Source of the DNA: Phoronis australis
Taxonomy: Eukaryota > Animalia > Phoronida
Assembly (NCBI GenBank): GCA_002633005.1
Contig: NMRA01000064.1
Span: 1 to 64,000, forward strand
DNA: 64,000 nucleotides
Reading direction: 5' to 3'
Shown here: piece after piece, positions 25,416-59,696 of the stretch
Layout: the number at the start of each line of letters is the position of its first letter
Position numbering within the stretch: position 1 is the first letter of the stretch
Made by a program: the position numbers and the translations under genes
Notes under the pieces: model-generated
The model's database searches: none
Told to the model about the DNA's origin: nothing
The model's input: the letters and a program-made list of their open reading frames with translations, nothing else

Positions 25416-28400
25416 TCATTCACTCAGAGAAGACATTTCGCTTAAGTATCCCGATTCCATAAGTTTGTTAGAGCATTTTTTGTTGTCCAGTTGTTCAATG
25501 TAGTGTTGCACTTTCTCCACGGCCCGCTCTTGTCCGATATTCCTCAACATTGTGGCTAGCGTCTGCAAAGCATCCATTTGACTCTTATCTTCTTTTCGCA
25601 TTTGCAATGTGAAGAGAACAAGCAAGGTATGTGTTTTCGAGTTAGCCATTGTTGTACTTTCAGTGTCTTTAAGGAACCTTGCCTTGTCCGGGCTGATATG
25701 TAGTTCGTTTGCGAAAGCCATATAGTCTTTTCCAGGACGAACCGGCTCTAAAAACTTAATAAGATCATGCCACAGGTCATAGGTAATATATCCAGCTTGT
25801 TTTGTATTTTTTTCACCTAGCATGTAGTTGTAAAAATCATCTTCATCTGGGTAGTGTTGCACCTGAAAAGACCATATAAATACATGACATTAGTGTTAGC
25901 AGAGTTTTCAATATCAGAATCTACCGATGTTCTGAAAGTTGTGTAAGTCTAAAGATCGCCTAGTTTTTGTGAATGTGACATTTTTAGTTTGGTTTCGTCT
26001 TTAATTAAAATCGAAGCTTGGAATTTTCTGCTGTCATCAGCGTTTTTATACTTCTGGAAAACAAGTTGAATGTCCAATTTAATGTCCGCGGCAAATTTAT
26101 GATCTCAGCTGCTCGTTATCTTTCTGAGGAATGGAAATTGTCATTATCAGGACAACTTGAAAGGTGTGGTTTTCATCAATGGCGTCCCAGTTTGTAACAA
26201 ACCACGGGGACAATATGTGACAATTTTGCGGCTAAAAATACACCGAGAATGGAATATGTTGATTTTTTTGTGGTTGAAGTTGAAAAAACAATTGGGACTT
26301 GTATCTTGACAATTGCGCACATGTAAAAGGAGTAAGAGGTGTTCTGGGGAACTCTTTTGAAAAATAAGTATGTTTTGACATTCCAGTGATTTAAAGCTTT
26401 GGTATTCGTGCAAAACATTTGCTGTCTTCTCTTATTTAACACACAATATGGCTGGCTATTGAAATTCCATTTCATTAAAATTCTCCACAAAAATAAATAT
26501 TAAGAACATTTTAGTCTAACGAAAGCAGGTATGGTAGTATCAGTTAGAGACAGCTTCACCATACATTTCTATGACCGCTTGTGGTAAGTTTCAACTTATT
26601 TTGCAAAAAAATGCCAAAACGGTTATTTTTCAATTTTTTAAAGGCTAATTATCTCTTTGCAAATATTTTTTTTGCAAAATTGCGGAGGTAAAAACACAAA
26701 CCGATCTTTCAGCCTTCGATCCATTTTAAGTGATGTTTTCATTAATGTTCAGGTCTAGTTAGCTAATTAATGAGATTTTCTAACTTTTCATAAGTATACC
26801 TTCAATATCACCACATGGCCTAATGGAAAGGGAAAATGTGTGTAGCCTTCCAAGGCTAGTTTGTGAAACATGACGCTAAGCATGAGATTACATTGTCATA
26901 AAATTATGTCCGTTATAAAGCATTATACAGAAAGTTGATGTTATCAGTACGTGAAAGATACAGATACCAAACGATCGTGTAAAAATAGGACCAATAACAA
27001 TAATAACAATGCCTTCATCCACAGCTCTCATTACCTTATGTATTGCTGACGGGGGCGGAAATGTTGCCAGAATAGTTGTCGGTTCACCTCCTGTTTGCTG
27101 AAATGTGATGTCACAAGATGGATCGTCGTCATCGAACCTCAGTCTAAAATCATAGGCTGCTGTTCCCCCTTTGAAAACGCTGTCTAGTTGAATGTCACCC
27201 TGAAAAAAGTGTGCACATGAGAAAATGTGTACAGTTGTCCAGCTTGGCCTTCCACTAATTTGTGTCTCATTTGAGATTGAGCAATCTACATATCCAGTGT
27301 CATATTATCAATGAGAATAACTCAACTACAACTAAGGTGCCTACGCAAAATAGGCACACCCGTGCAGTAGCTACTATGTCTCTCATAAATTGTTTCAAGT
27401 GGGTGAAAGTGGTGGCAAAAGGGGAGGCACAGCTAAAATCATCAGCCCCCCTGGCTGTTTACAGCATGAGGGCGTGAAGAACCCTTACTCTGTCACCACA
27501 AATAGTTCTGGCAATTGTTAATCATGTAAACATAGGCATGTCAAATGACAACCATCATTAAGCCTTGTACCAACATAGGCATTTTAAATGATAAGGGGAG
27601 CTGCCATTTCTGGTTATTCTACCTCACAATCAGAACACAACACAATGCATACAACACAAACTGGATAGTAACATTATGTGCCAGGATTTTTGAAGCTATT
27701 TCTATTAATATAAATGATTTCGGGTGGTGACATCAGCTGCTATGAATGTAAGGCAATGTGGCCCATGGGTACATGCGCGTGCGTAATAATTTACAGGTGG
27801 TCGACCATATGACTAGGATTACTGTAGTCTTACGGATAGACATTAACCCTGAATTTTTAAAATCTTTACTAATTATAAATATCTTCACATTCGGCTATAC
27901 AAAGATGTCTGAATTTCTGTTCCCCTAATCTCACGCTGTTCGCTTTCCTGGCTGAGTGGCAATGTATTGTTTATACTCTGGTTATGCATTATTTAGTTGA
28001 ATGCAATACTTGTCCTGTCTATTAACCCTATTTGGTTGCATGTAATACTTGTCCCGGTTATTAACCCTATTTGATCATTTGGCAACACTATCACAGAATT
28101 TTTTGTAAACCTCCAATTTTTTAGTTTCTGGTTTTAAACAAATGCGATACTTATTCCTCCCCAAGGCTCGCAATAGTACGCATGTGATCTTGTATAACTT
28201 GTCATTCAGTGTCAAATTTTCAACTTTTGAATTTATAGTAATGTTCTAAACTTGATCCAGGCCAAAGGTCAAATTACTGAACTCAAGATTCGACTCAGTT
28301 TCAGGTACAGAACTTATTAACCAATCATTCTACTCGATTGGAGTACAACTTTGTAAGTTTACTCGCTATGTGCTCTGCAATTGGTAATTTTTAGCCTGCA

Positions 28401-31400
28401 AATGAGGAGTGAGTAGAATGAGACCTATGGATAAATGCTTCAATTTTCGACAGAAATTATGGTGAAAATTGCCACATTTCTACTTTTCAGACACTAACTA
28501 CATTGTTTCAAAATTTAATGCGCAAAATTTTACCAAATGTTGTTTGCTAATAATTACGCCATACAAATCATGCTAACAGCAAAGTTTCCTTAAAATTTAT
28601 TTTCGTTGAGAAACTCACCTTTCCGCTATAATGTGACCCAAACTGAAGAATTTTTACTTTTTTATGAGGATAAGTGGTCTGAATCATAAGTTAAATTTTA
28701 CTGAAGATGCTGATTTCTCGCCCCTTTAAACTTACCGTTTTTATTGGTTCTTTTTGATATGCCAGACTGCACTTCATTTTTCTATCCTTTTTACTAACCA
28801 TGTGGCTTCGAGGTCTTGCTGCTAGTCTGTGGTCAGCGTGGTCAAGTTTCATCTGGTGAATGTAGAAGTAAATAAAAACATCAAAAGCAAATGCCAGATC
28901 AAACTCTGTATCGTTGCTGTCTCCAGTGTCCGGTTCACTGAGAATCTTGAGGAATGAATGTCGTTCTGTGTGCTTTTGAATTTCAGTTTAGTTCTCATTA
29001 CTACGGTGCTTTTGCATGGTCTTTTGGATATTAAAAAGACGTTATTGGTGGCAATGTTGCGTTTTTGAAATAGCCCCTAGGTGCAGTCAAACCCACAAGC
29101 ACAGTGGTTGTAGTCAATGCTTTGATAGTAAGGACTATAAATCCAGTGTTCCCAACCATCTGTCTTGAATCGTGACTGCGCCAAATTTGAATTTTGTTGT
29201 GACAAGTTTGGCTTACTTGCCTCGAATTTGAAAACTTATGCAACGAGTTTGAAGTTTTATTAGAAGATTAGTCATTTCTTAGCAAATTAAGGGCTATTTG
29301 GATTTTGGTAGGAGTTCAGTGTGCATTAATTTTATTCCAAGACCTAACACACAAACTCTGCAAAGTATGGACACGTTAATGAATTTTGTATTTTCAGTCA
29401 AGTTTGAATTTTCTGTTGTGGAGAACACTGAAGTCAATACAGCCAGTTGGCAGGGACTATAAACACAACAAAGTTGGAAGGAAGTCTTTGAAATATAAAA
29501 AATAGTTTTGATATATATTTTTGTTCAAAATTGTTGAGATTTTGACCAGTGACACAGGCAAGGCCAGTTCTAGAACTCTGTTCACCTTTAGTTTATAAAC
29601 TAATTTAATTTGTTACGACTTGGAAGCTTATAAGAGAGTTCAGATTGAGATTTCAGAAAAGACTAAAATTGTAACTACAGTAGAAATAGGGCTGTGAGTT
29701 TATCAAGGAGATACTTTACCTCTGATCTTAGAGGAGTGACACAGCACGTCAGTTTTACTTTGTTGGCTGCAAAGTGATCTGCACAGACAAATAAATCCAC
29801 TACAATACTGAAATCTTCACTCATATCCACACTTTCTGGACTGTCTTGTGGTCTGCATTTTTTTGGTCTTGCACCTGTATGGTCTTTCTCCTTAACATCA
29901 TCCATTGATAGGTCCTCCATTTTTTTGCTCACTTTTCCCATTGCTAGATTCGCATCATTTAAATTTTCAGTAGCTTCAGTTTTACTGTCTGCCGTTGCCC
30001 CGGGTTCATCGTCACCCACTGCATACGTTCCTCTGATACCCGTAAAGTGCATCAACAGTACTCTCAAAGCATTGCTGTCAACAAAGGACGCAGAACCATC
30101 TTCTCCATTGATGGATTTCCATGGTGAACTGAGTTGTTGAATCTCGGCCTGTATGGCGTCTGAGTTTGTAGCTCCGTGTTGTATACTCAGCACTACAGGA
30201 CTGTTAAATTCAATACCGTCTGGACCTAACTTTATTGTTGGAGTTATATGTCGTCCTCTCAACGTGGTCCTAGTTTCTAGAACTCGCATGAAGAGACGTT
30301 TTTGGTCATTTAGAGCACCTGGGGGTACAAACAGGAACACACCCTGCTGCTTCAGTTCTAGAAAGCCTCCTTCACGATCAAACAGGGCCGATGTCTCTAG
30401 TGCAGGTTGATTTGGAGGGGTGAGATCTAGGAAATTCTTTGGTGTTTGTTCAGTGCTTTCGTCACACAAAGGAATACCTGGAAGAAAAGTCGTTGTAACG
30501 TGTCATTATCGTAGGATATCTACCAAATACCTGGATACCTATATTATATAATTTAAGAATATTTTGTAAACTTTCTTGACTTAGAACAGGTTGAAAAATG
30601 CACCATTGTCCCCTGTGGTCGGTTGCATAAAACAGTTCCCTAGCTTTTCAGCACATTTGTAGACTAACACTAATTGTCTTTTCTATTTTACCTTTGACTT
30701 TGACTCATACCAACAATAAACAATAAGTTGTATTTTAATATTATTGAAATGAGAGCCCAGTTTTGAAATATATTATCAGAAAATGTGAAAATATATTAAG
30801 TAAATAGGAACTCTCAATGAAGCTAAAGCAGTGTTCCTCATCACGTGTTTTAACTTGTCACCGCGTCAAATCTAATTTTGTCATAACGAGTGTGGCTTGC
30901 TTGCATCGAGTTTAAAACCTATGCACTGAGTTTGAAGTATTAGGAGATTACTCATTTCTTTAGCAAATTAGGACATTTTGGACATTTGGTATCAGTTTGC
31001 TGCATTTATTCCGAGACTTAACACACAAACTTCCAGCAGTATGGACATAATAGACTTTTGTATACGTTCATGAATGTCATTATTCCAGTCAAGTTTTAAA
31101 TTTCTATTGTGGAGAATACTGTAAAGTGACTGCAGAGTGTAAAATTAATATCATTAGTGAGTAAATAAAGTCCAAAGGGTTTTATGGACCCAGCCATGGT
31201 GTTTTGAAGGAGGGTTGTCTCATTTGCCTGTATATGGGACCAAGCATGGTTTTGTGAAGGTGGGTTGTCTTGTGTGCCTGTATGGAACCAATCGTGGTGT
31301 TTTGAAGGAGGGTTGTCTCATTTGCCTGTATATGGGACCAAGCATGGTTTTGTGAAGGTGGGTTGTCTTGTGTGCCTGTATGGAACCAATCGTGGTGTTT

Positions 31401-34400
31401 TGAAGGAGGGTTGTCTCATTTGCCTAAATTTTGCTGTGTAATGTGACATTTTTAACTTTGTGTTTTGGTGATAGATAACTCCTTTTATTATCACAGCCTG
31501 ATTTAATTAGCTAGGAACTCGAAATTCTCTCGTTGAAAACAACGCAACGTGAAAATGCATTCGTTCATGATAGTCACTTGTCAGCTCTTTTAGCGAGGTG
31601 AACAGTTTTTGTGAAATGGAGGGAAATAAATATCCTTTCATTAGGCTACCTTTTGAATTAATTGCCCATTCTGCTGACTTTGATTCTGCACAACAATGTA
31701 TTATGTTCAGTGAGACAGATGGCTTGTTGAAAGATGTGCACAATTTATTTCCAAGTTTGAAGAGTTAAACTTAAGCTTAAAATTTGAAATGATCCTGGAA
31801 ATAGCTTAAATGAGAAAAATACAATGCTTTAGAAGCAAATTAATTTCTTTGTTTGGACAGTTGGTTGCAGTTCTCATTTTAACTGTGACTGTTTACCACA
31901 CAGCAACCTACTTGCGGGGGTTACTATTTTACATTCACAGGACGACAAAAACGTCGTCCGTGAAAAGAGTATAGAACTGCAATCCATCCCTTTGATGGGT
32001 CTGGCACTCTGTTTTTATTCTTGAAATGTATGCCTTCAAAAGTTCTGTTCACTGGCAACTGCTGGTGTTGAGTGTCTCATCTGACATGTGACCTAATAGA
32101 TTACCCACTGTGAAGATAATGGGCATTTGTTTTTTATAAGCGTAGGAATTATATTACGTAAATTTACTGACTATGCAGTGGTTGACTTGCCTTTTACTGT
32201 AAGCTGCTTCAACTGTTTTTTGAGTGTATCGCTTTTACCGATTGTGGAATTCCCGGCAACACTGTTATAACCGCTGTCCTGAGAGAAAACGCTCATTTCA
32301 GAGTTGGCAGAATTCAGTTTTCCAATGCCCAGTTTGTGCTGTTCTATTGGTGGTAGTAGTTTGGGAAGTGTCCTGAAAGGTGATATCACTTCGGTATCTG
32401 GAAGTTGACTGCTTTGCCAGGTTTTGTATTTGATTCTGTTGCTGTCTGGATCACCATGTTGCTGATCATTTGTTGATCTTCCATTGTCACTGTCATGTAC
32501 ACTGGCCTTTGTTGATCTTCCATTGTCACTGTCATGTACACTGGACTTTGCCTCCTTTGGAGTAGTACCTTTGGAATGGCTGGTATTTTCAGTTTCTACA
32601 GAATCTAACTCATCCATTTCTTTTGCTTGCTCTGCTCGGAGCTCTGATTGGTTAGTTGCCCTTGTGACATTGCCTTTCTCCTCAGAAGTGTCTTGGTAGC
32701 CATGGTTGTCATAGTGACCTGTTTCAGGGTTACCTGGAGTTGTGGCTTCTGAATAGTTCTGAACTCTTCCCTGTAAACAAAATGAACAGATGTGAGTAAA
32801 TGCATTTGTTTTGTGGAATATTTGTAATACAAACATCATTGTCCACTGAGAGACTACATCACTTCTATTGAAGAAATGTTTTATTGCTGGTGCTGTTAAT
32901 GAAGTTTTTGTAAAAGTACTATTCACCTGATGAGTTGCCCAAATAAGCCAATTTTAGCTATCCTGTCCGCAAACTTTCAGCGATCCCATTGGTCAACAGA
33001 TGTGGTGTAGTATTCTTTTTTTTGCTTTTCTCTCTACAAATGTTTTGGCAACATGGTTATGAGACCTGAGAGTGACATTTCATTAAGAAAATATTTGCGT
33101 TGTCGCCAAAAATGGCAGATTGGATATCTATAATTTAGTCTCGAAGTTGTTCACCAGAGGGGGCTTGTGCAAGTTGAAGGACTTTCAATATGAGAAGCCT
33201 GTTGCAAGCATGGTTTCTAGTCCAGCAATGGACTCTGGTGTAGATGTTCAATACACTTAGTCAGATTTTTTACCATAAAGCCACAAGTTGATTTGTATGC
33301 ATATTTCAACATTTCAAATTGTTTCTCATTCTTCTCATTTTCTATAATTTTTCTGAGACTTATTGCTGCTGATATTCATTGCACGTTGTTTCATTTTTAC
33401 ATAACCTTTGTGAAGTGTGAAAAATGAGCGCACAGTTGAATTGTAACCGAAACAAAATGTCCTGTTACAGTGTCATGTGATAAGTCTAACGGAATTGGCA
33501 TGGAGAACACAGATTCTATCCCCTCATTAGTCATCTGGGATACATAACAAATTAAGCCAGTTCATATCTTACAAAATGCTTTTCACTGATTTAAATGCAC
33601 CGCTTGACCTCCTCCTTGGTTGTCCAATCAAGAATCAGATGTCAGGGATCTACATCAGACTCAAATTCTAATAGAGTATGGGTTTGAGACTAATCCAGGC
33701 ACTGCAATATAGGCCAGACAGCCACACAACCCTTACAGAACCTCTGCCAGTTTTCTGTGTGTGAATAAGATCAACTTCTTGTCTGCGGTAGTAATACCCA
33801 GGGAACTTGGGTCACGGAAATGGGATTGTCCACAGGCCTTCATGCAGCTTATGTCCTGGATGCCCTAGCACTATTATGGACGCCCTGGCAAGGATCCCAA
33901 TGTATTGTTTGGACCTCCACTGTCAATCAATCTTTTAAGTTTGGACACACACATTGTAATGATTACTGGGAAGCCTAGGCACATAGCTGAAGGGAGAAGT
34001 GAGCTCACAGTGGCAGCTCTTTTTCAAGAAGAAACATACAATGTATATACAAAGTACCAGTACGGTAAAGTCGCGTGATTTTCGGACGGCCCGCCATTTT
34101 CGACCACGAATAAATATTTCCGAAATGAGTTTTTCATGGTCCACAAAATTCGTACAAGGTCCAAAAACTGTTTTTCAATGATCCTCGAATTTGGGACAAT
34201 GTCATAAACGTCGGATTTTTGTCCCGCGACTTTCGGACAAGGAAAATTTTAGAAACGCTAATTTAGGATCGACGCAACTCCCGTGTCACTAAAGCGTTCA
34301 ACGGATGATTACTACTCGATAAGGCTTGAATCTGAGAATTGGGGTAACGGGCTTTGTAATTTTTACCTTGTCTTGACGATGTCATGACCGTTACTCGATT

Positions 34401-37400
34401 GTCTTGCGTTTAGCTTGAGTTTGGCGCTTTAGCTATGAAAAAAGTCACCGAGTCTCGCATGACGAAAATTTCTGATGAAAATACAAATGGGAAATACACG
34501 GAAGGCTGCAGTTTTTCGTTGTAGCGTAACATGTGCTCTGGTTTAATTAGACCGTGTTGTTCAACTTCCGACTGTGACATTGAACTTGCACGCCTCAACT
34601 TGCGTGTTTACGAAGCGTTTTTATTTTTAAAACGTCCTGGCCTTTGCAAATGCCCTTGTTAGTGGCTAAAATCTCCCGACGACGTGTCTGGATTTTATTC
34701 TTGACGTGATGAGAAATATTTTTTGTTTAGGCCCCCATACACAATAGGTCACAGCTAAGTATGTCCGTAGGATATCGCGCGTTCAAAGTAGTGTAGATAG
34801 TGAACAGCAGCAGCCGAATGAGACGGAGCCAAAGTAAAACTGGTTAAAAATCAAACATAGCGCAAGGCCCAGCACTCAGAAAGGGGCGCGGCGCACACGC
34901 AATTGTTACAGAGACATTGCATCCCTGTCCTATGTTGTGTAAGTGCCGGTGTGCTATAACACATATCAAAAACTAATGTACATCCACGTAACCACGTTTC
35001 ACTACCCTTACAAATTGTCTGTTGCTCTCTGATAAGCATCGCAGATGCAAGAATCTCGCTAAAGAAGATAGTGTGATCGTGTGCTTCGTTTGCAATGCCT
35101 CACCATACGTCTCGACGTCTTAAGTCTAGCGTGTTCGTGAGATTCTCACCCTTGCGCCCCCGATCGCAGACTAGGGTAGAGTTCAGTAGCTGTCTTGGGA
35201 AATACAAAAATCTAGCCAAAATCACGCTTTCAATTAAAAAACACAATACATCACGTAATTTCATGAATTCGTGCTTTTTAGCGAAGTTCTAGCGTTACGA
35301 GCTTAACCCCAGATGTAAACCTAAAAAGATTTAACTTGCGGCGACCCAATTTTGCTTGCTCATCCACTGGTCTGTGTACTTGTGGTCTTGTTAATTCACA
35401 TCCTAGCTGTACCGTCTGAGGTACAACACCCTGAACTCCATGGTGTCCCGAGATTAAGATGAATCCCGACAAGGACACCGGGACCCTGTGGCACTCTCTG
35501 TCTGCGGCGACTAAGAAAATCCTCCACCAATCATTTCGAAAAATGACAAGTCAGTTGAATCAGATTTGGTAGTCGTTGCTTCTTGTGGTCCTAGGGGTAG
35601 GCTAACAAGAATACAGGACCTGGAGTCCGATGCAACGGGCCTGGAACCTGATAGGTGTTTCCGACCGGAGTTCCATATCTACTTTCCACAGGACCTTGTC
35701 TTCATGTCTATGTTACCGCCTTCAGTTGATAGTTTTGAGACAAAAAAGAAACGTGATCTTAAACTACAGACCATGTTTTTTGTATTACTTAATATAGTTT
35801 TAGAGGCATTTCAGCTGTAAGTGTGTTTAATTGTGTTGACTGTTACATTGCTAATTATTATTGTTCTATTTTTACCCGAGGTGATGCCTTACTTGCAGCA
35901 AGGGTAAATAATTTTGGGAAGTATTACTAGCGATTTCCGTATATAAGTTGGGGAAACCAAACGTCTTATGTAAAAATACACCAGGGCCTATACTCAGCAA
36001 TGCCGAATACACGAACACAGTATAAATACTGTAGCTCACCCTAATTATATCCTAGTGGGAATAGCATTATTTTTAGATTTCAAGCATGCATTTTTATTCT
36101 CAGATATGCATCCCAGGTATATTTTAGGGAAAAATTTAAGATACGCAAATTGGCCATATATTCTCCTGGACTTATATACGGAAATCTACGGTGGATCTTC
36201 TTAAACCTGTCAACCATGAAAATTTCATTGAGACAGTTTTGTTCTACTAACATGTTCAACTAACATTCCGTTCATGCAAGTCGGTCAGTACGTTCGCATT
36301 TAAGGCGTTATTGCAACAGGTAAGTGTTGTTTTGATTTTTGTTTGGTGTTTCCATATTTTATTTTGTTATGTATTCCTGTCTTCAGATAGTCACTGTTAT
36401 TCTTCAACAACATTTCTGTACTTATAATGAGACTTCAGTAAACTCGCGACTGTTCATACTTTAAATGTTAGCAGAAGTGTGTAATGTCCATCAGCAGAGA
36501 CCTGTGGGAAGAACTATTTTCCGTAACTGTAGCAAATATATGACGAAATGAAATGAAAACGGTCGACATAGATGAATTGTAATTGGTTAAATATACATTA
36601 AGAAAGAAAATTAAGTATATAAATAGTAGAATGGTACTTGAATTGCCTGGTTTACGTCCTTCATGAGTTCACCTGTCCCAAATTGAGTGCTTTCGTTTTT
36701 CTTTTCAGGTCGTCACTAGTCGATTCTTCTAACAGTCGTGATCTGCCCAGTATCCTATTGTATCAACGTGCGCAACAACGGTCTTGGCAGGGGGTTGCAC
36801 CTAGTAGACTCCCTTAGAATTAGTGGCGCAAAATCGACATTGGTGTGCAACAGGAGGCCGAGGGAGGGGGGGGGGGGTGGCGGCGTAAATTAGTAGTGAC
36901 TGACGGAGACTGAGCTGCGCGAAATTGGTGACGACCGTGGACGGCGCTAAACTGGTGACGACCAGAAGAAACGGCCCTGTTATCTTCCACGCAGATTACC
37001 AGAAAATGTTAACGATTATCAGTTTCATTTCATCCACAAAAAGATTTCACAAGTCAGAGTTTTCACTGTGGTTAAAAACGTAAGCGAACCCAGATGTGTT
37101 AGGTCACCTCAGTTGCATGAAGACGCGCCAGTGTATCACTGAGTTAACATCGGGCGTTTCAAAGGCTGTGGATGAGAAAGGTTTTAATTGTAAAAAAAAA
37201 CGGTTGGGTGAATTTGATGTTGGTAGCATTTGAAATTGCATTTGCTTTCTAGACAACGCCCTTATATATACAATATGTTAGTTAATCGTGTCTTCAGCCG
37301 CGCAGCACTGTACTAGTCGACGCATTCCCATCGTTTGCCGCAGTAGGCCTAAACATGTAGAACGACAGCGCTTCTTCAACAATTCAGACGACTACCAGGA

Positions 37401-39790
37401 CGACAAATGGGGATCACAAGTCGATGAGAAACTACTCGTTTTATTATCATGATTGTCTTTGTTATCTATTTTGGGTAATTGTTCAATCGAAGTTTTCATG
37501 TTGAAACTGAGCTTTCAGTTAATATGGAAATAAATGTGTCAGAGTTAACTTGCGTTTCGGTTTGTAACCAGCAGACAATGCATGGATACGTTTAACAAAC
37601 ATAAATATATGCTATGTTCTTGTCATTGTTCGTCACTTTCTTCATTGAACTCGTTCCCACATCCATTACTGTTACGTTTAATGCAAAATTCGTTAAAATT
37701 GAGAAAGCGCATGTTTTGATGGTCGGGAACCCTCTTTGTGCGCCGAATACGCAATTCCAGCATTTTATTGGGAAACCATGCGTTCACAGCGCAAACTCGA
37801 CATTTTTGTTATTGAGAAAACGCATTTTTACAAAAGAGAATCGGTTGTCTAACGTTTCATGTGCGTCAACAACGCAAACCAGACCCACTCATTGAAAAGC
37901 CCATATTTGTCACCAGGAAGACTCTTCGCAACGCAGCCCGATATTTCAAGTGGGATAGCGCAGTTTTGAAAAGATTCCGTCACTTGCGGAGAACGGTTTT
38001 TGAGCATCGGCAATGCAAGCCGAATATTTCATATTGAGAAAGCACATCTTTGAAAAGAAGAACCAACACTTGTTGGGAACGGTCTTTGTGCGTCGACGGC
38101 GCACATTTCTTATTGGGAAAGCCAGATTTTCAAAAATTAATCGCTCAGACCATTTGAGTCTCATTTACCTGCAATTATACTGCTATCAAATGACCGAGCC
38201 AGCATTGTTGATACTACGACCGCTCATCGAAATAATGTACACCCACGAAATTCGGACACTAGCGGAAACCCAAATTTGGAGGTCCGCCAAATTCGGACAC
38301 CACAAAATGATATTTCGCGAGATTCGTCCAAGAATGAATTTTTTCTATTGGAATTAATTTTCAGTGTCCGAAAATCACGCGACTTTACCGTATATACAAT
38401 GTTGCTGTGTTCACATTTAGTTGATAGCTTTGAGTATCTACAGCGGCTTTCAAGTATTAGCAGATTTGGTTGTCAAAGTTTCTTCCACAGCTGGCTATGC
38501 TCCCAGTGGTCTTGCCTCCACAGGTCACTACTATATGTAAATGTAGGGTTCGTAACTTAGTGCGACTCCATACTGGTATTTCAGAGATGTAACTGCATGA
38601 TTTTCATCTTTTTTTAAAATATAAAAAACGAAATAAATGTCATTAATTTAATACAATATTGTGCCACAGGAAAATGCCCATTTAATTCTTTTGAGTTTGT
38701 GCTCTTTCGTGCTTTTCAATGTGCGTTTTAACGTTTAATATGGAACAGCAGTGACACCTGTTGCCAAAATATAAGTCACACATCATACCTGCACTTATCT
38801 TGTTTTGTAACTGCAGCTCTGATGACTCATTTTACAGAATATTAAAGCTAAGTAAAATTATGTGACAAACTTTATAACACTTTATAACATCAATTTGACC
38901 CAAGATCACCAAAAACATAGTGCACTCATCATTTAACTAATATCTCTAATATTTGTTTGGTAAGCTACTTGGCTGTTTTTGTAAATTAGGATGTAAAAGT
39001 CTTGGTCTACACAGTTTTCTCAGTAAAAAAAGCTCACTACAGAAGGCTGTTTTGTAAACTTAGACGTGAAAACCTTGGTCTACGCATTTTTTGTAAAAAA
39101 ATCTCTCTGTGTGGGGGGGGGGTTGCTGGTGAGTGGTCCTGGTGGTGGGGCTTACGCATCGGAATCATGGACGCCCTGGAATATTGGGAACCCCATTTTG
39201 GGCACCCTATTTTCGAAATCCTGGATAAAGGCCTGATTGTCCGTGATTTTTTATCTTACCAAATGTGCAAAACTGTGTTCAAAAAGGCTTGTATTAAATA
39301 AGTTTGGTGACTGAAAAAGGTAACACACTGTAGCTTATTACTAAATACACAATTTGGTATACATATTGTCATGTGTATACATATTGTCATGTGTATACAT
39401 ATTGTCATGTGTATACATATTGTCATGTGTATACATATTGTCATGTGTATACATATTGTCATGTGTATACATATTGTCATGTGTATACATATTGTCATGT
39501 GTATACATATTGTCATGTGTTCGAACTAAATCCGACCTGGAAGGTCTTTAGTAACTTACCTTATTCTTTGAACGTAGTTTTCTGAAGAGGCAGATAACAC
39601 ATCCGGTTAAAATAAGAAGTAAAACTCCAGTGGTGATCGTAACGATGTAAAATATTTCAATGGTTATGACAAATGAGTTTCCACAGTCTTGTTGGGTTGG
39701 TCCTGTACATGGTCCTGCGCGGCAATACTGATCACATGGTACACAGGCGGTACTGTTGTTAAATGTTGATTGCGGACACGTGCTGCTCAT
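25416..39790 (-). CDS. Gene A: single-pass receptor, Cys-rich (furin/TNFR-like) ectodomain - TM - disordered region - ZU5 - linker - UPA-like - death domain; exons 39790-39560, 32770-32191, 30477-29720, 28852-28736, 27199-27035, 25862-25416 (~765 aa)
   Basis: All junctions are phase-consistent (0,1,0,0,0; intron 2 is GC-AG). Ectodomain CPQSTFNNSTACVPCDQYCRAGPCTGPTQQDC; TM IFYIVTITTGVLLLILTGCVICLF followed by RKLRSK; ZU5 FDREGGFL...VFLFVPPGAL...PTIKLGPDGIEFNSPVVLSIQH...W...HFT; death domain DLWHDLIKFLEPVRPGKDYMAFANEL...LATMLRNIGQERAVEKV. Start codon is inferred. Confidence 0.8.
29144..31121. repeat. Pair of ~290-bp direct repeats (29144-29430 and 30829-31121) flanking the gene A ZU5 exon
   Basis: Both begin CAGTGTTCC and share GAGTTTGAAGT.TTA..AGATTA.TCATTTCTT, AACACACAAACT, CAGTCAAGTTT and TTGTGGAGAA.ACTG. 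Confidence 0.7.
31183..31425. repeat. Tandem repeat, 98-bp unit made of two ~49-bp subunits, ~2.5 copies
   Basis: GTTTTGAAGGAGGGTTGTCTCATTTGCC recurs at 31201, 31299 and 31397. Confidence 0.85.
34063..38390. mobile_element. 4.3-kb TA-flanked DNA element (Tc1/mariner-pogo-type ends), no intact transposase seen
   Basis: Perfect TIRs CGGTAAAGTCGCGTGATTTTCGGAC / GTCCGAAAATCACGCGACTTTACCG, TA on both sides; CpG-rich interior; no long ORF. Confidence 0.75.
35926..36192. mobile_element. Small pogo/Tc2-like MITE nested in the 4.3-kb element
   Basis: Inverted ends GATTTCCGTATATAAGT / ACTTATATACGGAAATC. Confidence 0.5.
39358..39520. repeat. 18-bp minisatellite (TATACATATTGTCATGTG) x9
   Basis: Perfect tandem copies; explains the repetitive ORFs at 39256-39585. 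Confidence 0.95.
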
Positions 39791-42700
39791 GATGAGTTTT
39801 ATTGGTTGTCCATCCTCACTAGAAAAACAAAACATACTGAGCTTTGTATCGTCTGAGATTTAATGATTTTGAAATAACTACAGTGTATTGTGGGACGAAT
39901 AAAACCAACCAATGAGAATATACTTCTGCATTTCCAACCAAAAGATGACAAGTAAGATTTTTATCCCACTATCTTTATGATGTATTACAGTAAAAATTAT
40001 TCAATTTAGGACAAAAGTAATAGCTAAAATTGCCATATTTTTTGTCACATTGTTACAAATGGTCAAAATTTTCCAGATAATGTTTGATAATAGCTTTTCC
40101 ATGTAAACCATGTTTGGTAATAGCTGTGCGTTACAAACCATGCTAATAGCAAAGTAAAGTATTCTTGAAAAGTTGACAGTCGCAGGGTGTGCGGCTGGGA
40201 AATTAAAATTCCCATAATCCTTTTGAGTTGGTGAAAACCCATTTTTTTTAAAGACTGAGTAATCATGATTAAAAGGTATCTGTTAGTTGGAACCTCATTG
40301 AAAGGTATCTGTTAGTTGGAACCTCATTGAAAATTTCATCCATTTGGATTTTTTCTACATAATCGTGTGAAGTGGTTCTAAACCCTATTGAATGCTTATT
40401 TGTTGGATTAAAATTGAATAAAACACATGAGCTACCCTATAATACCACAAACCTAGTTATAAAATGAGTGACCTTTCTGTCTCCAAACTAACTCATAGTC
40501 TTCTAGTAAGTAACTTCTCTGGGTTTTAATTAGCTGCAGTTCATGTGTTAAACTCACACTTATTTTCATAGTCACATTTTGGGTAGTTATTAATCATGGT
40601 CACCACATGATTAACCAGCGCAATAGTATGAATGTAAGAAGAATAAACTCCATTTAGTATTTTTAAAATCTTCCATTAGTTTGTTATATTTGAAAGCAAT
40701 GTTGCAATGTCCTAGTGTATGCCGGTTGATCTTCAGGGTGAAACAATGACTCTTAGGTGAACAGAAATTATCACGGCACTTCGTGAATAAGAGTTCGAGT
40801 TCACACTGTTTTTTTAACTTCATAGTTGACTAGATTGGAAAATAAAGCATGGAAATATGAAATCAGTCAGTTTCGGTTTTTGAAATATCAATTTTGGCAC
40901 CAAGTAGTTTGTTACCTTCATACTTTGCGGTATTTCTCTTTTCATTATCCAACAAAGTACGAGTACCAGGAGCGGTGCGCAGCCTATTGTGCACTTGATA
41001 AAAATAAAGTTATGTTCAGATGCTTTTTAGAATTATGGTAACAGTTTGAGATTCTGAGTTTGAGAACATGAGCAGCATCATGGTAAGCAAAATGTAGACT
41101 TTGTGTTTGATGTAATAACAAGGTTGTCTAGCATAAACTCTGCTCGTTTTGTTTTTACATTGTATGTAAAATAATCTGTTAAGTACTTGCCTCATATTGG
41201 AAGTGGGAACTCTATGCTGTAAAAGGTCCTAGCATTCATCGACAACTGTGCATCAATGAATAGTCTACTGTGATCTATTTAAACTGCTGTTTCCCCTTCT
41301 CAATTTGATATCTTTATTATGTCAAAAGCAAGTCTTACGGTCTTTCCGTATCCAGTGACAGAATCCTCTTCAAGTGAGTGATTGTCTATAGGTTCCTAGA
41401 CTGGACAATATAGTGATGCCATAGGGTTCTTTGTGTTCAGTTTGTGGAAAGTTTGTAGGTATCCTTTACCTATTTGTTGTCTTCTTGTACTACTTAGAAT
41501 GAGAATCGCTGTGTAGGCAATCTAGATGATTAGAAACTTAATGAACACTTACCTGGATTCACAGGTTGTCTTGTTTTTACACAACTCAGTTATCAGGTAA
41601 AAGCTGACAGTTGTCTCCAAAGGTATGCTGCCATGGTATATTTAGCATCTCTCTTTCTCTGCTTGACTGTTGCTATGGGAGTTTTCTGTTATGGTCTCCT
41701 GATATCTGGGCCTGTGTAAATATGTATGGTCCATTGTTCTCTTTTTAAACCCCAATCAATGCCTGTGGAATGCACCTCAATGTGTTCTTTTGTTTAACCT
41801 GTGGGTGTACCTGTCTAAATATTTTCGTATGAGTCATGGGGTTTTTGAGGAAGTAAGATGACCCGACTACCGTTGTTAGTACAGTTTTGATATGCAGCAT
41901 GTTCAGTGATTTGAGAAAAGGTTAAAGTTCCTTTTTAAGGTTTTGAAGGCCCTTATCAATTAATGTGTGTACTTATCCATCTATCTACAAAACAATCTAG
42001 ATTTCAACTTAAAAATACTTTGTTGCAGTTTCTTATCATTTCATTTTCGTTTTTTGCAATTTTTGATTTTTTCAAAAACATTACAGTCCTATGTTTGATA
42101 GCCCCTCATGTAAAGGTGTAACATTCTAAAAACAACAGTATTTGGAGAACAGTGCATCTAAAAGCTTCATGTGAACAGTGCTGTAGTAATAAAATTAAAG
42201 GTAAGTAGGCACCCAGAGCCCTCCCCCCCCNCCCCCCCCCCCGTATCACCTTGAGCACTGAACGTAACTTACGGTGCGTAGACGCTATGTTCAAATGCCA
42301 AAAGGTGGTTGGCTGCGCCTACGTGCGCCTACGCCCCACTACAGCACTGCATGTGAATCTGATCAGTCATCAGTTGGACATTTTTCTGGTTGTGAATACA
42401 CCTCTACAGTACATTGAATTGAAAACAGTACCAATAGTTTTTAGACAATTTTGTGAACACCGAGATTGGGTAAAATAAAGAAAATCAAAGTGTTTGTTTT
42501 CCCATCAAGTCAGAAAAATAAGCCACTTTTTGCTATTCACTTCTTGAACCCCTAATCATCTCATTTGTTAATTTTTTTTTCGTCACAAACTTGTTGGCCA
42601 AATATAGTTTTGGTTATTCACCTGACAGGCGTCAATCAAAGTTGATAACTGATGTGCTGTCATAAGTGACTTGTTCTATATTCCACACTTGGACAGGCAA

Positions 42701-44174
42701 ATATCGTGCGTCACAAGCTCGTTTCCAGAGATGAAAAGGAGACAAGTGGTACAAAATAAAGTAAATAGACTAGTAAATTGAAATAAAATAATATTATCTT
42801 TGGAAAGATGGGCAATAATAAACCTGCACAAGAGATGCTGAAAACAGCTCATCCACAATGGTTACTATTTCATAGGTGGTTCTCACAAGTAGCGCACAAC
42901 GTAACTATCGACTGCAGTGACTCAACTTGCAAAAGTTGAAGTTGAAGTGATGGTTTGAAGGAAATAATTTAAATTTTTAATTTTAATGCTCATACAGAAA
43001 TTAAATTTGAGGTGATAGACAAATGCAAGATTTGAGAAAAAAAGTGGAAACTAAAAGTGGTGGAAAGAATTTATATCACTGGATCATATCCAAGGGATTT
43101 TAGGGGCACAAGTTTGGGGATTGTACTGCTGTTGTGATGTCTGCTTAGTGGTCTGCGCAACTAACACTGGGGTTTAGAGGCAGATTTAGTTATAACTGTC
43201 ACCCCTGGATTTTTATATGTTGGGTAAGGTAACGAAGCAACCATCATGTGGCCAACTGCAATGTAAATACCCTAATGTTTTCAGATTAACTTGTTGGATG
43301 ACCTGAAAGTATCAGTTCATTTTGCCCGCAGGATTGGTGAGAGCACTGAAGTTGTCTGGTGGGACAGTAAAAGCAGAATAGCATTGTTGTGTGTCCCTAA
43401 TAAACTTGAAGCTTTACCTAGTCAATAGCAAAAATCAGCTGATTTGACCAATATGCCTATGAGCATTATCTTGATAAAACAGTACCAACTTTAAAGAGTT
43501 TGTTGGGTGAATAGCAAAAATAACGTTATTTGTCCACACATGCCTGATGTTACAGCAACTACCAACAAATGGGAACGGAGCATGCATTGTTGGTTAAACA
43601 GCAAAAATCGACCTATTTTTCCAACTTTTCAGCCTTAGCGCCAGATACAAAATAGGATTTAGGCCAAACTTTTCTGTTTTAGAAAACGAAATTTGCTATT
43701 AATTCTGGGAATTGGGTATTTATAGTACTCATACTAGTTATTTTTCACAAGAGCCTTCTTACTTAAGTATAAGAATATGGGCATTCACAATGTTACACAG
43801 CAAAGTCCTTGAAAAGCAAAAAAAGGTTAATATTGGCAATTATTTTGTCTGAAATTGGTGAGATGTTACCTTAATATGCTATAATGCTGAAGTCATTTGT
43901 GTAGTTTTGCTTCATTATAATAAAACTGTAATTTAATACTTATTTCACATAAAAATAATTGCCAAAATTGTCATTTTCCATTTTTGCAAGTAATGAACAA
44001 CTTACGAAAAAATGTTTTTGTGATACCTTCACAGCACAAAACATGCTAAGTAATAGTCTGAAACTTTAGTAATCTTTATTTTTGTAGAGAAATTTGACAA
44101 AAAGGACTTTCGCATGTCATCCATGTTGTGTGCTAAAGAAGTGAAAAGTTATCGAAGTTCTGAAGTGAAAAATA

Positions 44175-44502
44175 ACAGAATGCCACTATATGTCTGAGTA
44201 GTGGTCGGCTGTACATGGTGTAATACAGAATGTTACTGTATGTCTGTAGTGGAAGGCTGTACATGGTGTAATACAGAATGTTACTGTATGTCTGTAGTGG
44301 AAGGCTGTACATGGTGTAATACAGAATGTTACTGTATGTCTGTAGTGGAAGGCTGTACATGGTGTAATACAGAATATCACTATATGTCTGACAGCTGTAC
44401 ATGGTGTAATACAGAATACCATTGTATGTCTGAGTAGTGGTGGGCTGCACATGGTGGAATACACAATATCACTGTATGCCTGAGAAGTTGACGGCTGTAC
44501 AT
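44175..44502. repeat. 48-bp minisatellite, ~6-7 copies
   Basis: TGTACATGGTGTAATACAGAATGTTACTGTATGTCTGTAGTGGAAGGC repeated. Confidence 0.9.
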
Positions 44503-45316
44503 TGTGCATCATCAAACCAGATGAAAAAATGAAGTTGTTTGGAAAATGATCAAAGAAAATGAAGAATGTGTTTGCTATAATAGATTCTTTATTATTGTTC
44601 ATACAGGGTATGTGTCAGGATGATGCATCCTTGTCACAACCAATACACTCTACGTAACGCTGTCAGAGTGTACAATCATAACTAATTCCTACTTCAAGTC
44701 TGTAACGCTTCTACGCTTAAAAGGCACATTCCAGAGCATCCTTTTCGAATTTCACATAAAACAATTTGTCAGAATTATTGTTTTTCTATTGTTCAGAAGG
44801 CCGATTATAATACGTTGTTGAAATAGTCAAAATTTTGTTGTATGATAAGAGTTCAGTACAAGCAGTAGTGTTCATGATGCCATGTAAATAGACTCAGGCT
44901 GGACAAAATACCCGCAAAATCTTGGCTTATTTTCCTATTTTTATAAAGGAATTTTCACTCATATTTTTCAACTTCTGTTGCATGTAGTTATAAGCCAATT
45001 TCCTTACAACTTCATAGATTGCCCTATGAGAATCTACTATGCTTTTTGATTTTACCTGATTTTATATCACCTTGTATGTAAGTGCTTAAGCTAATTTTGC
45101 AAACATTATGCCAGGAAAATAAATTAAAATGTTCAATTTACAAAACAATGAAGCGGTTTATCCATGCTTGTAACAAAGGAATGTTTAAACTGAAACAATA
45201 TAATGATTAAAATATGTGTATACACTAAAACTGTATTCAGTGTAACTATTTATATCAAAACTTTGCATTCTTATAACATAATTTTCTGTCGTCAGTTTAT
45301 TTTTAAACAAGTTGCA

Positions 45317-47867
45317 CATCTATAAATTAAAATAACTATGCTTCACTCAGTGCTTGTCTTTGTCAAGGTCACAGACACATCTCTTACTACTCCATACCCA
45401 AAGTTTATAGTATATAAATAAGATGTACATAAAGCAATAAAAATTCATAATAATACTGTTGTTTACTAGGCGTCTTAAAATGATGGAGTGTTCTGGTAAT
45501 ACAATTGACCTTTTCACAGATAGCATTAAACGTCATATACACTAAGGATTTTGGTAAATGGATCAGTCAATTTTGAGATGTCTCAACTGAGCTGTGTTGT
45601 TGAATTTGTGCTGTGCATGGATATAGTGATGTGACAAATGAACATCCTAAGATGTGAATTAATCAACTAGATAACTAATAGATTGTGATGGCGGGACTTC
45701 AGTTGTTTGTCAGAGTCCTTTGCCTGCATATGAAGCTGATGATTTGGCTATGCCAGCTCTTGGCTTGACTGATTCATATACCACAAATCTGCGCTCTGAG
45801 ATGCGTGTGCATCAATTTACGCTATCCATAAATAGGTCAAGAATACACTAGTTCCCCGTAACAGAACTTTTTGTCAGCAATTCATTTTTAGGCACCTACA
45901 TATACGGTATATACATGGGTGCAAGTTGTAGTCATCTCTATCTAGACATCTGGTTCCGATGCTGTATCTCCTAAACTCCTTGTACTGTGTTGTTGAAATC
46001 TGTCAGATGTGTTCTTGTGAAGTTGACCACAGGTGACTACGAACTTCTGACTGATCTGTCTGCTGCTGTGCTCCTAGTGGCAATTTTGATTTTATAAGTT
46101 TGCCTTTGTATCTTAGAAGTTCCTTGGTGGATTTTAAGGAAATTTGACAAATAGTTTTATAATAAGAAGACAGCAATGCCATTTCATTTCTTACGGATTT
46201 GATATATTGTGGGCCATCTAATGGCCATTTTTGTTATACTAGAAACACCCCTAGAAGCACAAAGTTTTCGGTGTAGCCGTGGATGCATTTCAATGCTCCG
46301 CATTGTTCTTGTTTAAATATTAAGTTCTTCATCTACAAAAAATAACTATGCTTCACTCAGTGCTTGTCTGTGTCAAGGTCACAGACACACCTCTTACTAC
46401 TCCATACCCAAAGTTTATAGTATATAAATAACATGTATATAAAGCAATAAAAATTCATAATAATACCTCTGTTAAACAGACATCTTAAGATGATGAAGTG
46501 TTCTGGTAATACAATTGACCTTTTCACAAGTAGCATGAAACGTCATATACACTAAGGATTTTGGTAAATGGATCAGTCAATTTTGAGATGTCTCACCTGA
46601 GCTGTATTGTTGAATTTGTGCTGTGCATGGATATAGTGATGTGACAAATGAACATCCTAAGATGTGAATTAATCAACTAGATAACTAATAGATTGTGATG
46701 GCGGGACTTCAGTTGTTTGTCAGAGTCCTTTGCCTGCATATGAAGCTGATGATTTGGCTATGCCAGTTCTTGGCTTGACTGATTCATATACCACAAATCT
46801 GCGCTCTGAGATGCGTGTGCATCAATTTACGCTATCCATAAATAGGTCAAGAATACACTAGTTCCTCGTAACAGAACTTTTTGTCAGCAATTCATTTTTA
46901 GGCGCCTACATATACGGTATATACATGGGTGCAAGTTGTAGTCATCTCTATCTAGACATCTAGTTCTGATGCTGTATCTCCTAAACTCCTTGCACTGTGT
47001 TGTTGAAATCTGTCAGATGTTTTCTTGTGAAGTTGACCACAGGTGAGTACGAACTTCTGACTGATCTGTCTGCTGCTGTGCTCCTAGTGGCAATTTTGAT
47101 TATATAAGTTTGCCTTTGTACCTTAGAAGTTCCTTGGTGGATTTTAAGGAAATTTGCCAAATAGTTTTATAATAAGAAGACAGCAATGCCATTTCATTTT
47201 CTTACGGATTTGATGTATTGTGGACCATCTAATGGCCATTTTTGTTATACTAGAAACACCCCTAGAAGCACAAAGTTTGCAGTGTAGTCGTGGAAGCATT
47301 TCAATGCTCCGCGTTGTTCTTGTTTAAATAAGTTCGTCATCTATAAAAATAACTATGCTTCACTCAGTGCTTGTCTGTGTCAAGGTCACAGACACACCTC
47401 TTACTACTCCATACCCAAAGTTTATAGTATATAAATAAAATGTATATAAAGCAATAACAATTCATAATAATACCTCTGTTAAACAGACATCTTAAGATGA
47501 TGAAGTGTTCTGGTAATACAATTGACCTTTTCACAGATAGCATGAAACGTCATATACACTAAGGATTTTGGGAAATGGATCAGTCAATTTTGAGATGTCT
47601 CAATGGAGCTGTGTTGTTGAATTTGTGCTATGTATGGATATAGGGATGTGACAAATGAACATCCTAAGATGTGAATTGATCAAGTAGATAACTAATAGAT
47701 TATGATGGCAGGACTTCAGTTGTTTGTCAAGAGTCCTTTGTCAACTTATTAAGCAGCTGATTTGGTTATGCCAGTTCTTGGCTTGACTGATTCATATACC
47801 ACAAATCTATGCTATGAGATGCGTGCGCATCAATTTATGCTATCCGTAAATAGGTCAAGAATACACT
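45317..47867. repeat. ~1.01-kb tandem duplication, ~2.5 copies, each containing a ~340-bp MITE-like segment
   Basis: Units start near 45317, 46330 and 47338 (AAATAACTATGCTTCACTCAGTGCTTGTC...). Internal imperfect inverted ends TTGACCTTTTCACAGATAGC / GCTATCCATAAATAGGTCAA. Confidence 0.9.
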
Positions 47868-59669: not shown

Positions 59670-59696
59670 CATCACCGTCTTGTTCTTGTTTGCCAT
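59670..59696 (-). CDS. Candidate first coding exon of gene B (MANKNKTVM)
   Basis: ATG in CCAATGG context with an upstream in-frame stop, strong ATG|GTAAGT donor, phase 0 compatible with the 54530 acceptor. Not confirmed. Confidence 0.35.

What the first reader, a model, noticed from the sequence alone, without database searches (positions are those of the whole stretch)
39560..39790. Gene A looks like a signal-peptide-less (type III) receptor with a single 6-Cys module
Seen: MSSTCPQSTFNNSTACVPCDQYCRAGPCTGPTQQDCGNS, then a ~24-aa hydrophobic helix and RKLRSKNK. N-glycosylation sequons (NNS/NST) before the helix and basic residues after it predict N-out/C-in. The nearest upstream candidate exon (donor at 41553) has an in-frame stop, suggesting the ATG at 39790 is the start. 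Established: the CxPC..C...CTGP...C spacing is furin-like, and single-CRD type III topology is used by the TNFRs BCMA and BAFF-R. Inference: a minimal TNFR-like receptor wired to a ZU5-UPA-DD tail instead of a bare death domain.
Basis: partly seen in the sequence, partly recalled or inferred. Interest (0 to 1): 0.7.

Follow-up and report, generated by a model that had tools for sequence, protein, structure and literature searches.

The report
Furin-module mini-receptor, self-cleaving death tail
This spliced, weakly expressed animal gene encodes a tiny six-cysteine module and one membrane-spanning stretch, likely joined to a cell-death signalling tail that is predicted to cut itself; it likely lacks a signal peptide, and the module resembles furin/ErbB repeats more than TNF receptors, so it is likely a new layout of the known UNC5CL-type protein rather than a TNF receptor.

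Summary
The exon is real: 6 Cys (gaps 10,2,3,4,7), overlapping sequons, a 24-aa hydrophobic helix, RKLRSKNK, then a perfect donor. ATG 39790 lies 28 nt inside an exon with a strong acceptor (39818). The upstream exon (donor 41553) is transcribed on the same strand (about 2 reads, one run) and has an in-frame stop with no usable ATG, so the reference reads as type III (about 0.7). Caveats: four upstream ATGs; a strong-context ATG at 41634 is one base out of frame; the joints e1-e2 and e2-e3 were not listed (too few reads). The module is furin-like, not TNFR-like: the best hits are ErbB2/3 and furin-repeat proteins (20/37 identical to one repeat), in the register of the last repeat before a membrane helix. 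BCMA's ligand-binding D-x-L is absent. Downstream exons give a 765-aa frame: disordered linker, ZU5 ending in His-Phe-Thr, UPA-like part, death domain. The closest known protein is UNC5CL (TM-ZU5-UPA-DD, self-cleaving). Likely mechanism: signal-anchor insertion, self-cleavage at Phe/Thr, release of UPA-DD. No homologue was found. New variant of a known kind; moderate interest.

The parts
41553..41767 (-). Exon 1 (5' end not defined, at least 41767): 5' leader in the reference, with uATGs at 41734 (30 aa, in frame but stopped by TAA 41644), 41648 (20 aa) and 41634 (13 aa, strong context, one base out of frame)
   Evidence: About 2 same-strand reads in run X1; depth in bin 41505-41594 equals 42 nt, i.e. 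a read ending exactly at donor CAG|GTAAGT 41553; frames. Link to exon 2 inferred.
39560..39818 (-). Exon 2: acceptor at 39818 (phase 2), 4-aa uORF at 39813, start ATG 39790, Cys module, TM, basic stop-transfer, phase-0 donor
   Evidence: about 4 same-strand reads in X1, none in X2, X3, X4
39683..39778 (-). 32-aa six-cysteine furin-like module (aa 5-36), sequons at N11/N12
39584..39655 (-). Transmembrane helix (aa 46-69; hydrophobic from aa 40), predicted type III signal anchor
   Evidence: Hydropathy and charge; helix at pLDDT 81-97
32191..32770 (-). Exon 3: 193-aa low-hydrophobicity linker with DSGYNS (32278-32261), ends at a GC donor
   Evidence: Joint to exon 4 in 4 reads of X1 and 1 contig of X4; composition and motif
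29720..30477 (-). Exon 4: ZU5 domain (Pfam 30394-30161), His-Phe-Thr at 30049-30041 (aa 414-416), acidic linker, start of UPA-like region
   Evidence: Pfam E 2.5e-13; UNC5B best PDB hit E 0.0011; HFT conserved in gene B
28736..28852 (-). Exon 5 (predicted only): 39 aa, phase 0-0, UPA-like
   Evidence: Canonical splice sites and open frame; no read joint shown; no BLASTP match to gene B's exon
27035..27199 (-). Exon 6: 55 aa, UPA-like
   Evidence: Joint to exon 7 in 2 reads of X2 and 1 contig of X4; same 165-nt size as gene B's exon, no BLASTP match to it
25416..25862 (-). Exon 7: death domain (Pfam 25763-25500), ESGYLS near the C-terminus, stop
   Evidence: Pfam Death E 1.6e-9

Best explanation
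Exon 39818-39560 encodes a six-cysteine furin-type module, a hydrophobic helix and a basic stretch, and is likely the signal-peptide-less front end of a 765-aa UNC5CL-like membrane protein whose ZU5 domain is predicted to cut itself at His-Phe/Thr and would then release a UPA-death-domain fragment to signal. Steps: (1) Shown: exon content, ZU5 and death-domain matches, the HFT motif, splicing of exons 3-4 and 6-7, transcription of exons 1 and 2. (2) Inferred, about 0.85: exon 2 splices to exon 3. (3) Inferred, about 0.7: translation starts at 39790 by leaky scanning or re-initiation behind four uORFs, so output is low; the long helix with a +7 charge difference inserts N-out as a type III anchor; the 40-45-aa lumenal piece gets one glycan (N11 or N12) and three disulfides (1-2, 3-5, 4-6, by analogy). 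(4) Predicted, about 0.6: N-to-O acyl shift at Thr416 cleaves the chain, and the 350-aa C-fragment stays bound to the anchored half. (5) Speculative, about 0.3: clustering through the module, or phosphorylation of DSGYNS and degradation of the anchored half, frees UPA-DD to nucleate an IRAK/MyD88- or FADD-type death-domain assembly and drive NF-kB or cell death. Origin (inferred): the membrane-proximal stump of a furin-repeat stalk, shuffled onto a ZU5-UPA-DD tail.
For: 765 aa without internal stop with all exon phases compatible. Exon 1 transcribed, with an in-frame stop and no later in-frame ATG. Of 5 phase-2 ATG-first candidate exons in 39830-49900, none has a good signal core (best 9-aa KD 1.78, inside a 1-kb repeat). 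4884 nt of modelled coding sequence in the window carry no frameshift, so assembly indels are rare. Long hydrophobic anchors with C-side positive charge favour N-out (PMC2139883 abstract and introduction; PMC6269167 passage). Module: 20/37 identical to a furin repeat of P0002, which lies in GF_recep_IV/Furin-like matches; the last repeat before P0002's TM has gaps 10,2,3,3,7 against 10,2,3,4,7 here; 5 of 5 PDB hits at E<=10 are ErbB2/3. HFT ends the ZU5 in both paralogues and aligns with ZO-1's HF (non-significant stretch). PIDD1 cleaves at His-Phe-Ser, and Ser, Cys or Thr serve as nucleophile in such self-processing proteins (PMC9162469 passages). Unc5CL keeps TM and supramodule, lacks the ectodomain and self-cleaves (PMC10084454 passage). 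Two [DE]SGYxS motifs: the looser pattern [DE]S[GA]xxS reaches 2 copies in 0.4% of 3000 shuffles (motif recalled, chosen after seeing it).
Against: Only about 6 good reads (3 fragments by my arithmetic) in 1 of 4 runs cover exons 1-2, and neither joint e1-e2 nor e2-e3 was listed. The true 5' end is unknown. Three of the four uATGs have A at -3 and G at +4, and one uORF ends 8 nt before the main ATG, which is poor for re-initiation. ATG 41634 could be joined to the main frame by a one-base indel, a layout seen in only 6.5% of 5000 shuffles. No homologue was found to confirm the N-terminus. The ErbB hits are weak (E 0.017-0.57) and Pfam gives the module no furin or TNFR family directly, only VSP below its cut-off. 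UPA has no profile hit. The motif is HFT, not the HFS of the tested proteins. No ligand, partner or function was tested.
Confidence: 0.5

Rival explanations
1. Type I protein: the real start is ATG 41634 in exon 1, and the reference carries a one-base deletion (assembly error or null allele); the true protein has a 37-aa N-terminal extension acting as signal peptide. A sub-variant: TAA 41644 is an error or allele and ATG 41734 adds 70 hydrophilic residues, which would still be type III.
For: ACCATGG context; joinable in only 6.5% of shuffles; 39 open codons upstream of ATG 39790 (13.8% of shuffles); exon 2 begins with a phase-2 acceptor and an open frame, like an internal coding exon; furin repeats usually sit in type I ectodomains (general knowledge).
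Against: 0 frameshifts in 4884 modelled coding nt. Over 141 open single-base insertions the best 9-aa hydrophobicity was 2.17, next 1.79, weak for a signal peptide by my judgement (SignalP not available). The extension would add two further Cys.
Confidence: 0.2
2. A true minimal TNF receptor (BCMA/BAFF-R-like) that binds the animal's TNF ligands through its single module.
For: Type III with one 6-Cys CRD is the BCMA layout (PMC5360319 passages). The module fits a recalled TNFR cysteine pattern if the C4-C5 gap is relaxed from 7-11 to 4. A death domain follows.
Against: The strict pattern fails. No TNFR_c6, BCMA, TACI or BAFF-R model was listed at E<=10 (HMMER filters drop most weak hits) and no TNFR chain in PDB. 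Where BCMA has Y13/D15/L17, this module has F followed by N-N-S-T sequons (register by eye).
Confidence: 0.12
3. A decaying or barely translated remnant: a truncated receptor gene whose ectodomain exons were lost, with a vestigial module that is only a spacer or trafficking tag.
For: Very low read depth; uATG count 4 against 3.9 expected, so no depletion; a 4.3-kb transposon in intron 2; no homologues.
Against: All six Cys, sequons, TM, HFT and death domain are intact over 765 codons with canonical, used splice sites; the Cys set is complete with none unpaired.
Confidence: 0.13
4. Exon 2 belongs to a different transcript and does not join the ZU5-DD exons (two genes).
For: The joint 39560-32770 was not listed.
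Against: Phase 0 donor and phase 0 acceptor match; same strand and same run carry most of the signal; without splicing the frame stops 3 codons later; no convincing other exon among 81 donor-frames scanned for TM or Cys-rich content in the intron.
Confidence: 0.08

Closest known systems
UNC5CL (ZUD)
   Same: TM without the Unc5 ectodomain, then ZU5-UPA-DD, with self-cleavage retained (PMC10084454 passage; the primary paper Heinz 2012 was not held, I saw only its title in that reference list). Its 'type III' database label is recalled, not checked.
   Different: This protein adds a 6-Cys glycosylated module outside and about 225 aa of disordered linker before ZU5, and has HFT instead of HFS. 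Orthology was not shown; the tail may be an independent lineage-specific ZU5-UPA-DD.
BCMA / BAFF-R / TACI (TNFRSF17, 13C, 13B)
   Same: No signal peptide, N-out single TM, one small Cys module (PMC5360319 passages).
   Different: Second half of the module has furin spacing (C-x4-C-xGP-x4-C); no D-x-L; the tail is ZU5-UPA-DD and not a short TRAF-binding peptide (1 TRAF2-like match against 1.4 expected).
Furin-like / GF_recep_IV repeats (ErbB2/3; P0002; Tetrahymena KAL4468609.1 = P0001)
   Same: Cys spacing, the C-x-GP-x4-C end, and position directly before a TM.
   Different: Those occur in arrays or large ectodomains; here one unit is the whole predicted ectodomain.
PIDD1, CARD8/NLRP1 (ZU5-UPA self-cleaving proteins)
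   Same: HF/S-type site at the end of ZU5, disordered stretch before ZU5, death-fold domain after UPA (PMC3210808 and PMC9162469 passages; CARD8 abstract starts).
   Different: Those are cytosolic; this one is membrane anchored with an extracellular module.
UNC5A-D netrin receptors
   Same: TM-linker-ZU5-UPA-DD order; UNC5B is the best PDB hit of exon 4.
   Different: No Ig-Ig-TSP1-TSP1 ectodomain; canonical UNC5 does not self-cleave.

Membership tests
TNFR superfamily | CRD with TNFR cysteine spacing (recalled PROSITE-type pattern, C4-C5 gap 7-11) | tested here: not met
   Gap is 4; strict pattern fails, relaxed pattern fits
TNFR superfamily | Match to a TNFR-family profile or solved chain | tested here: inconclusive
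   None listed in Pfam or PDB phmmer, but Pfam also lists no furin family for so short a query; 5 of 5 PDB hits are ErbB
TNFR superfamily | TNFR CRD fold | tested here: inconclusive
   Single-sequence model has pLDDT 52-56 over the module; fold searches returned nothing or only long helices
BCMA/BAFF-R/TACI subgroup | Y/F-x-D-x-L ligand hairpin (human BCMA Y13, D15, L17) | tested here: not met
   Residues from PMC5360319 passage; here F10 is followed by N-N-S-T; register by eye
BCMA/BAFF-R/TACI subgroup | Type III topology, no signal peptide | tested here: inconclusive
   Met in the reference sequence but 5' end and e1-e2 joint not shown
TNFR superfamily | Binds a trimeric TNF ligand | not testable with these tools
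   No TNF ligand sequence of this species in hand; no genome held
Furin-like (FU / GF_recep_IV) repeat | Sequence similarity and Cys register of furin repeats | tested here: met
   20/37 identical, pairwise E 1e-9; library E 1e-10 and 7e-5; spacing; both hits carry GF_recep_IV above cut-off
Furin-like (FU / GF_recep_IV) repeat | Direct Pfam match above gathering score | tested here: not met
   Only VSP, 15.7-16.4 bits against cut-off 31.4; these models span several repeats
UNC5CL-like | Single TM without Ig/TSP1 ectodomain | tested here: met
UNC5CL-like | ZU5 domain | tested here: met
   PF00791 50.6 bits, cut-off 21
UNC5CL-like | His-Phe-nucleophile at the end of ZU5 | tested here: met
   HFT aa 414-416, also in gene B; Thr instead of Ser
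UNC5CL-like | UPA domain | tested here: inconclusive
   No Pfam hit on the three separate exon pieces; inferred from position
UNC5CL-like | C-terminal death domain | tested here: met
   PF00531 38.2 bits, cut-off 22.6
UNC5CL-like | Orthology to vertebrate UNC5CL | not tested
   No homologues returned to build a tree
UNC5CL-like | Actual autoproteolysis and IRAK/NF-kB signalling | not testable with these tools
   Needs expression
UNC5A-D netrin receptors | Ig-Ig-TSP1-TSP1 ectodomain | tested here: not met
   Predicted ectodomain is 40-45 aa; exon 1 is closed in frame

The most novel reading that the evidence does not exclude
A convergently built 'BCMA-like' surface receptor: one furin repeat serves as the whole ligand-binding ectodomain of a type III receptor, and ligand-triggered phosphorylation of a beta-TrCP-type degron destroys the anchored half and frees a pre-cleaved UPA-death-domain fragment, i.e. 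CARD8/NLRP1-style functional degradation controlled from outside the cell.
Probability: 0.1. Interest if true: 0.7.

Novelty: new variant of a known kind. Interest (0 to 1): 0.38.

Why it matters
UNC5CL-type proteins have no known ectodomain (as far as the passage says), so how they are triggered is open. A natural version with a defined 32-residue extracellular module gives a small, testable input for a self-cleaving ZU5-UPA-DD switch. It would also show that the single-module type III receptor layout of BCMA can arise again from a furin repeat. Against that, marine invertebrates shuffle many front ends onto this tail (unchecked AI notes list LRR, tetraspan and ankyrin versions), this gene has no detected homologue, and its expression is very low, so it may be a lineage-specific experiment.

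Tried and rejected
No whole genome held. No RNA holder listed by index; four same-species runs were offered and laid. Three word-index protein searches for longer relatives (exon 4, exon 7, ZU5 alignment of genes A and B) scored 0 of 2226, 0 of 81 and 0 of 1209 candidates; the tool calls this weak evidence. The 1.84-billion library gave 2 hits, both furin-repeat proteins, no orthologue. The ESM Atlas could not read the sequence. AlphaFold without deep alignment was uninformative: module pLDDT 52-56, ZU5 exon 30; Foldseek gave 0 matches, VIA gave only long helices, Z<=4.3. A 20-nt exon 1 pattern in metagenomes hit 2 loci that match the window only over 20-21 nt, i.e. chance, so the T-run at 41612-41609 could not be checked. 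Viral contigs: 0 of 12 pattern hits confirmed. NCBIfam: nothing relevant. TRAF2/TRAF6 motifs at chance level. A TM exon for gene B: none convincing among 171 donor-frames in 54600-64000. Literature: no paper describing this layout was seen in searches 'ZU5+death domain+TNFR+invertebrate' (3 papers), 'ZU5+death domain+furin-like+transmembrane' (2 papers, both Unc5D-GPC3), and (listings only); the library lacks most subscription papers, and Heinz 2012 and Liao 2014 were not held. Searches returned nothing useful. No complex prediction was run, since no candidate ligand was in hand.
Full report
Observation. It has six Cys with gaps 10,2,3,4,7, overlapping sequons at N11 and N12, one hydrophobic stretch (best 19-aa KD 2.48, about aa 46-69, hydrophobic from aa 40), then RKLRSKNK and the donor AAG|GTAAGT. 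Net charge is -1 before and +6 after the helix. A furin-type 6-Cys pattern occurs once in the window and 0 times in 60 shuffles.

Gene structure. The ATG lies 28 nt inside an exon that begins at a strong acceptor at 39818 (phase 2). Downstream, exons 32770-32191, 30477-29720, 28852-28736, 27199-27035 and 25862-25416 join in phase to 765 aa without a stop. RNA supports two joints: 32191-30477 (a GC-AG intron; 4 reads of X1, 1 contig of X4) and 27035-25862 (2 reads of X2, 1 contig of X4). Exon 28852-28736 is predicted only. Pfam gives ZU5 (E 2.5e-13) and Death (E 1.6e-9); UPA has no hit and is inferred from position.

The 5' end. In the focused lay only run X1, 1 of 4, had good reads here: 6 of its 42 reads were 95% alike or better, and the depth over both exons is all of the orientation expected for minus-strand RNA. 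Depth falls on 39560-39810 and 41553-about 41770, with only repeat-like reads between. My arithmetic on the bins: bin 41505-41594 holds 42 nt, exactly one read ending at donor 41553; bin 39525-39614 holds 120 nt, fitting two reads that stop at donor 39560 plus the 5 nt that intron and exon 3 share (GTAAG, GGAAG); no read ran over the end of the stretch. So both donors appear to be used, but the partners were not displayed, because joints need 3 reads. The e1-e2 and e2-e3 links are inferred.

In the spliced leader the main frame is closed by TAA at 41644, followed by 39 open codons with no ATG. A scan of 39830-49900 for other ATG-first exons with a phase-2 donor gave 5 candidates, none with a convincing signal core. 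Three things count against an easy type III call. The leader has four uATGs (3.9 expected by shuffling), three in strong context, one ending 8 nt before the main ATG. ATG 41634 (ACCATGG) is one base out of frame and could be joined to the main frame by a single indel, adding 37 aa; this layout arose in 6.5% of 5000 shuffles. ATG 41734 is in frame and separated only by the one TAA. In favour of the reference: 4884 nt of modelled coding sequence in the window show no frameshift, and the shifted product is weakly hydrophobic (best 9-aa KD 2.17 over 141 open insertions). I put type III from 39790 at about 0.7 and the shifted type I at about 0.2. Long hydrophobic anchors followed by positive charges, with a short unfolded N-terminal piece, favour N-out insertion (PMC2139883, abstract and introduction; PMC6269167, passages).

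What the module is. All sequence evidence points to a furin-like repeat. PDB phmmer gave 5 hits at E<=10, all ErbB2 or ErbB3 (E 0.017-0.57, weak), with ErbB2 sharing the 2,3,4,7 spacing. The 1.84-billion library gave 2 hits: a Tetrahymena protein and an unnamed IPT/TIG protein, both matching GF_recep_IV above cut-off. One repeat is 20/37 identical. In P0002 the last repeat before the hydrophobic segment has gaps 10,2,3,3,7, and in P0001 all five units precede a hydrophobic segment. So the ectodomain looks like the membrane-proximal stump of a furin-repeat stalk with a complete set of three disulfides (connectivity by analogy, recalled). Pfam itself lists only VSP below cut-off. A recalled TNFR pattern fails at the C4-C5 gap, though the first half of the module is TNFR-like in spacing, a resemblance between the two repeat types that I recall as long known and could not source. 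BCMA binds ligand through Y13, D15, L17 (PMC5360319, passages); here the matching hairpin, by eye, carries the sequons. Structure prediction did not resolve the fold.

The tail and the mechanism. ZU5 ends in His-Phe-Thr (aa 414-416), conserved in the neighbouring paralogue (39% identity over the ZU5 core) and aligned with ZO-1's HF in a non-significant stretch. PIDD1 cleaves at His-Phe-Ser right after its ZU5 domains, and in CARD8 the fragments stay associated (PMC3210808, passages); Ser, Cys or Thr act as nucleophile in such proteins (PMC9162469, passages). Unc5CL lacks the Unc5 ectodomain, keeps TM and ZU5-UPA-DD and self-cleaves (PMC10084454, passage; PMC7883297, passage). The 193-aa linker is 18% hydrophobic and carries DSGYNS; ESGYLS follows the death domain, and gene B ends with DSAYMS. 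I recall these as beta-TrCP-type phosphodegrons; two copies of the loose pattern arose in 0.4% of 3000 shuffles, but the pattern was chosen after seeing them. Most likely working model: low-level translation, N-out insertion, constitutive cleavage at Phe/Thr, a membrane-held latent UPA-DD fragment, and release or clustering on a signal, feeding a death-domain assembly towards NF-kB or death. The trigger is unknown; degradation of the anchored half, as described for CARD8 (abstract starts in listing), is my bold guess. TRAF motifs are at chance level.

Comparison and novelty. It works like UNC5CL with a BCMA-like topology. It is not shown to be a TNFR: two defining features were tested and not met. 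It is not an UNC5 netrin receptor. Membership in UNC5CL proper is untested. No relative was found, and no paper with this layout was seen (listings; the library lacks most subscription journals; no supplements were read). PMC8195603 (passages) notes UPA-ZU5 fusions in invertebrate immune proteins; PMC11874512 and PMC13255311 added nothing beyond a reference title. Unchecked AI notes report LRR, tetraspan and ankyrin front ends on the same tail in other invertebrates, which fits routine shuffling. The organism was not identified; AI notes on this genome say mollusc in one place and horseshoe worm in another.

Verdict. Observation confirmed; interpretation partly supported. New variant of a known kind, interest 0.38.

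Noticed in passing
window 54531-49938 (-): Gene B, a tandem paralogue: ZU5 with HFT (39% identical to gene A's ZU5 core), three further exons, 517 aa from ATG 54383. Its last exon has no Pfam Death hit and no real similarity to gene A's death-domain exon. Its first coding exon is open for 50 codons before the ATG and begins in phase 0 with basic residues, like gene A's post-TM exon, but no TM exon was found up to 64000.
   Followed up: partly
window 34061-38392: 4.3-kb DNA transposon-like element with perfect 27-nt terminal inverted repeats beginning TA, inside gene A's second intron; RNA depth about 16-85 (both orientations summed) with many mismatches, so likely reads from other copies.
   Followed up: partly
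window 32190-30478 (-): GC-AG intron between exons 3 and 4, supported by reads and a contig.
   Followed up: yes
window 8066-7032 (-): Open frame of 344 aa with rhodanese-like and dual-specificity phosphatase domains (DSPc E 1.3e-32), apparently one long exon.
   Followed up: no
window about 45300-47800: Tandem repeat of about 1010 nt, up to three copies at 93-99% identity in matched blocks, between genes B and A.
   Followed up: no
window 41854 and 41836 (-): ETS-like and AP-1 consensus sites 70-90 nt upstream of the furthest exon 1 read; no chance control run.
   Followed up: no
window about 58500-59200 (-): CpG-rich stretch with a YY1-like motif (recalled) and donors at 58791 and about 58541, seen by eye: candidate promoter and non-coding first exon of gene B.
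   Followed up: no
P0001 (Tetrahymena malaccensis KAL4468609.1): Five repeats of a unit in which a furin-like module sits directly before a hydrophobic segment; the record looks like several fused gene models.
   Followed up: no
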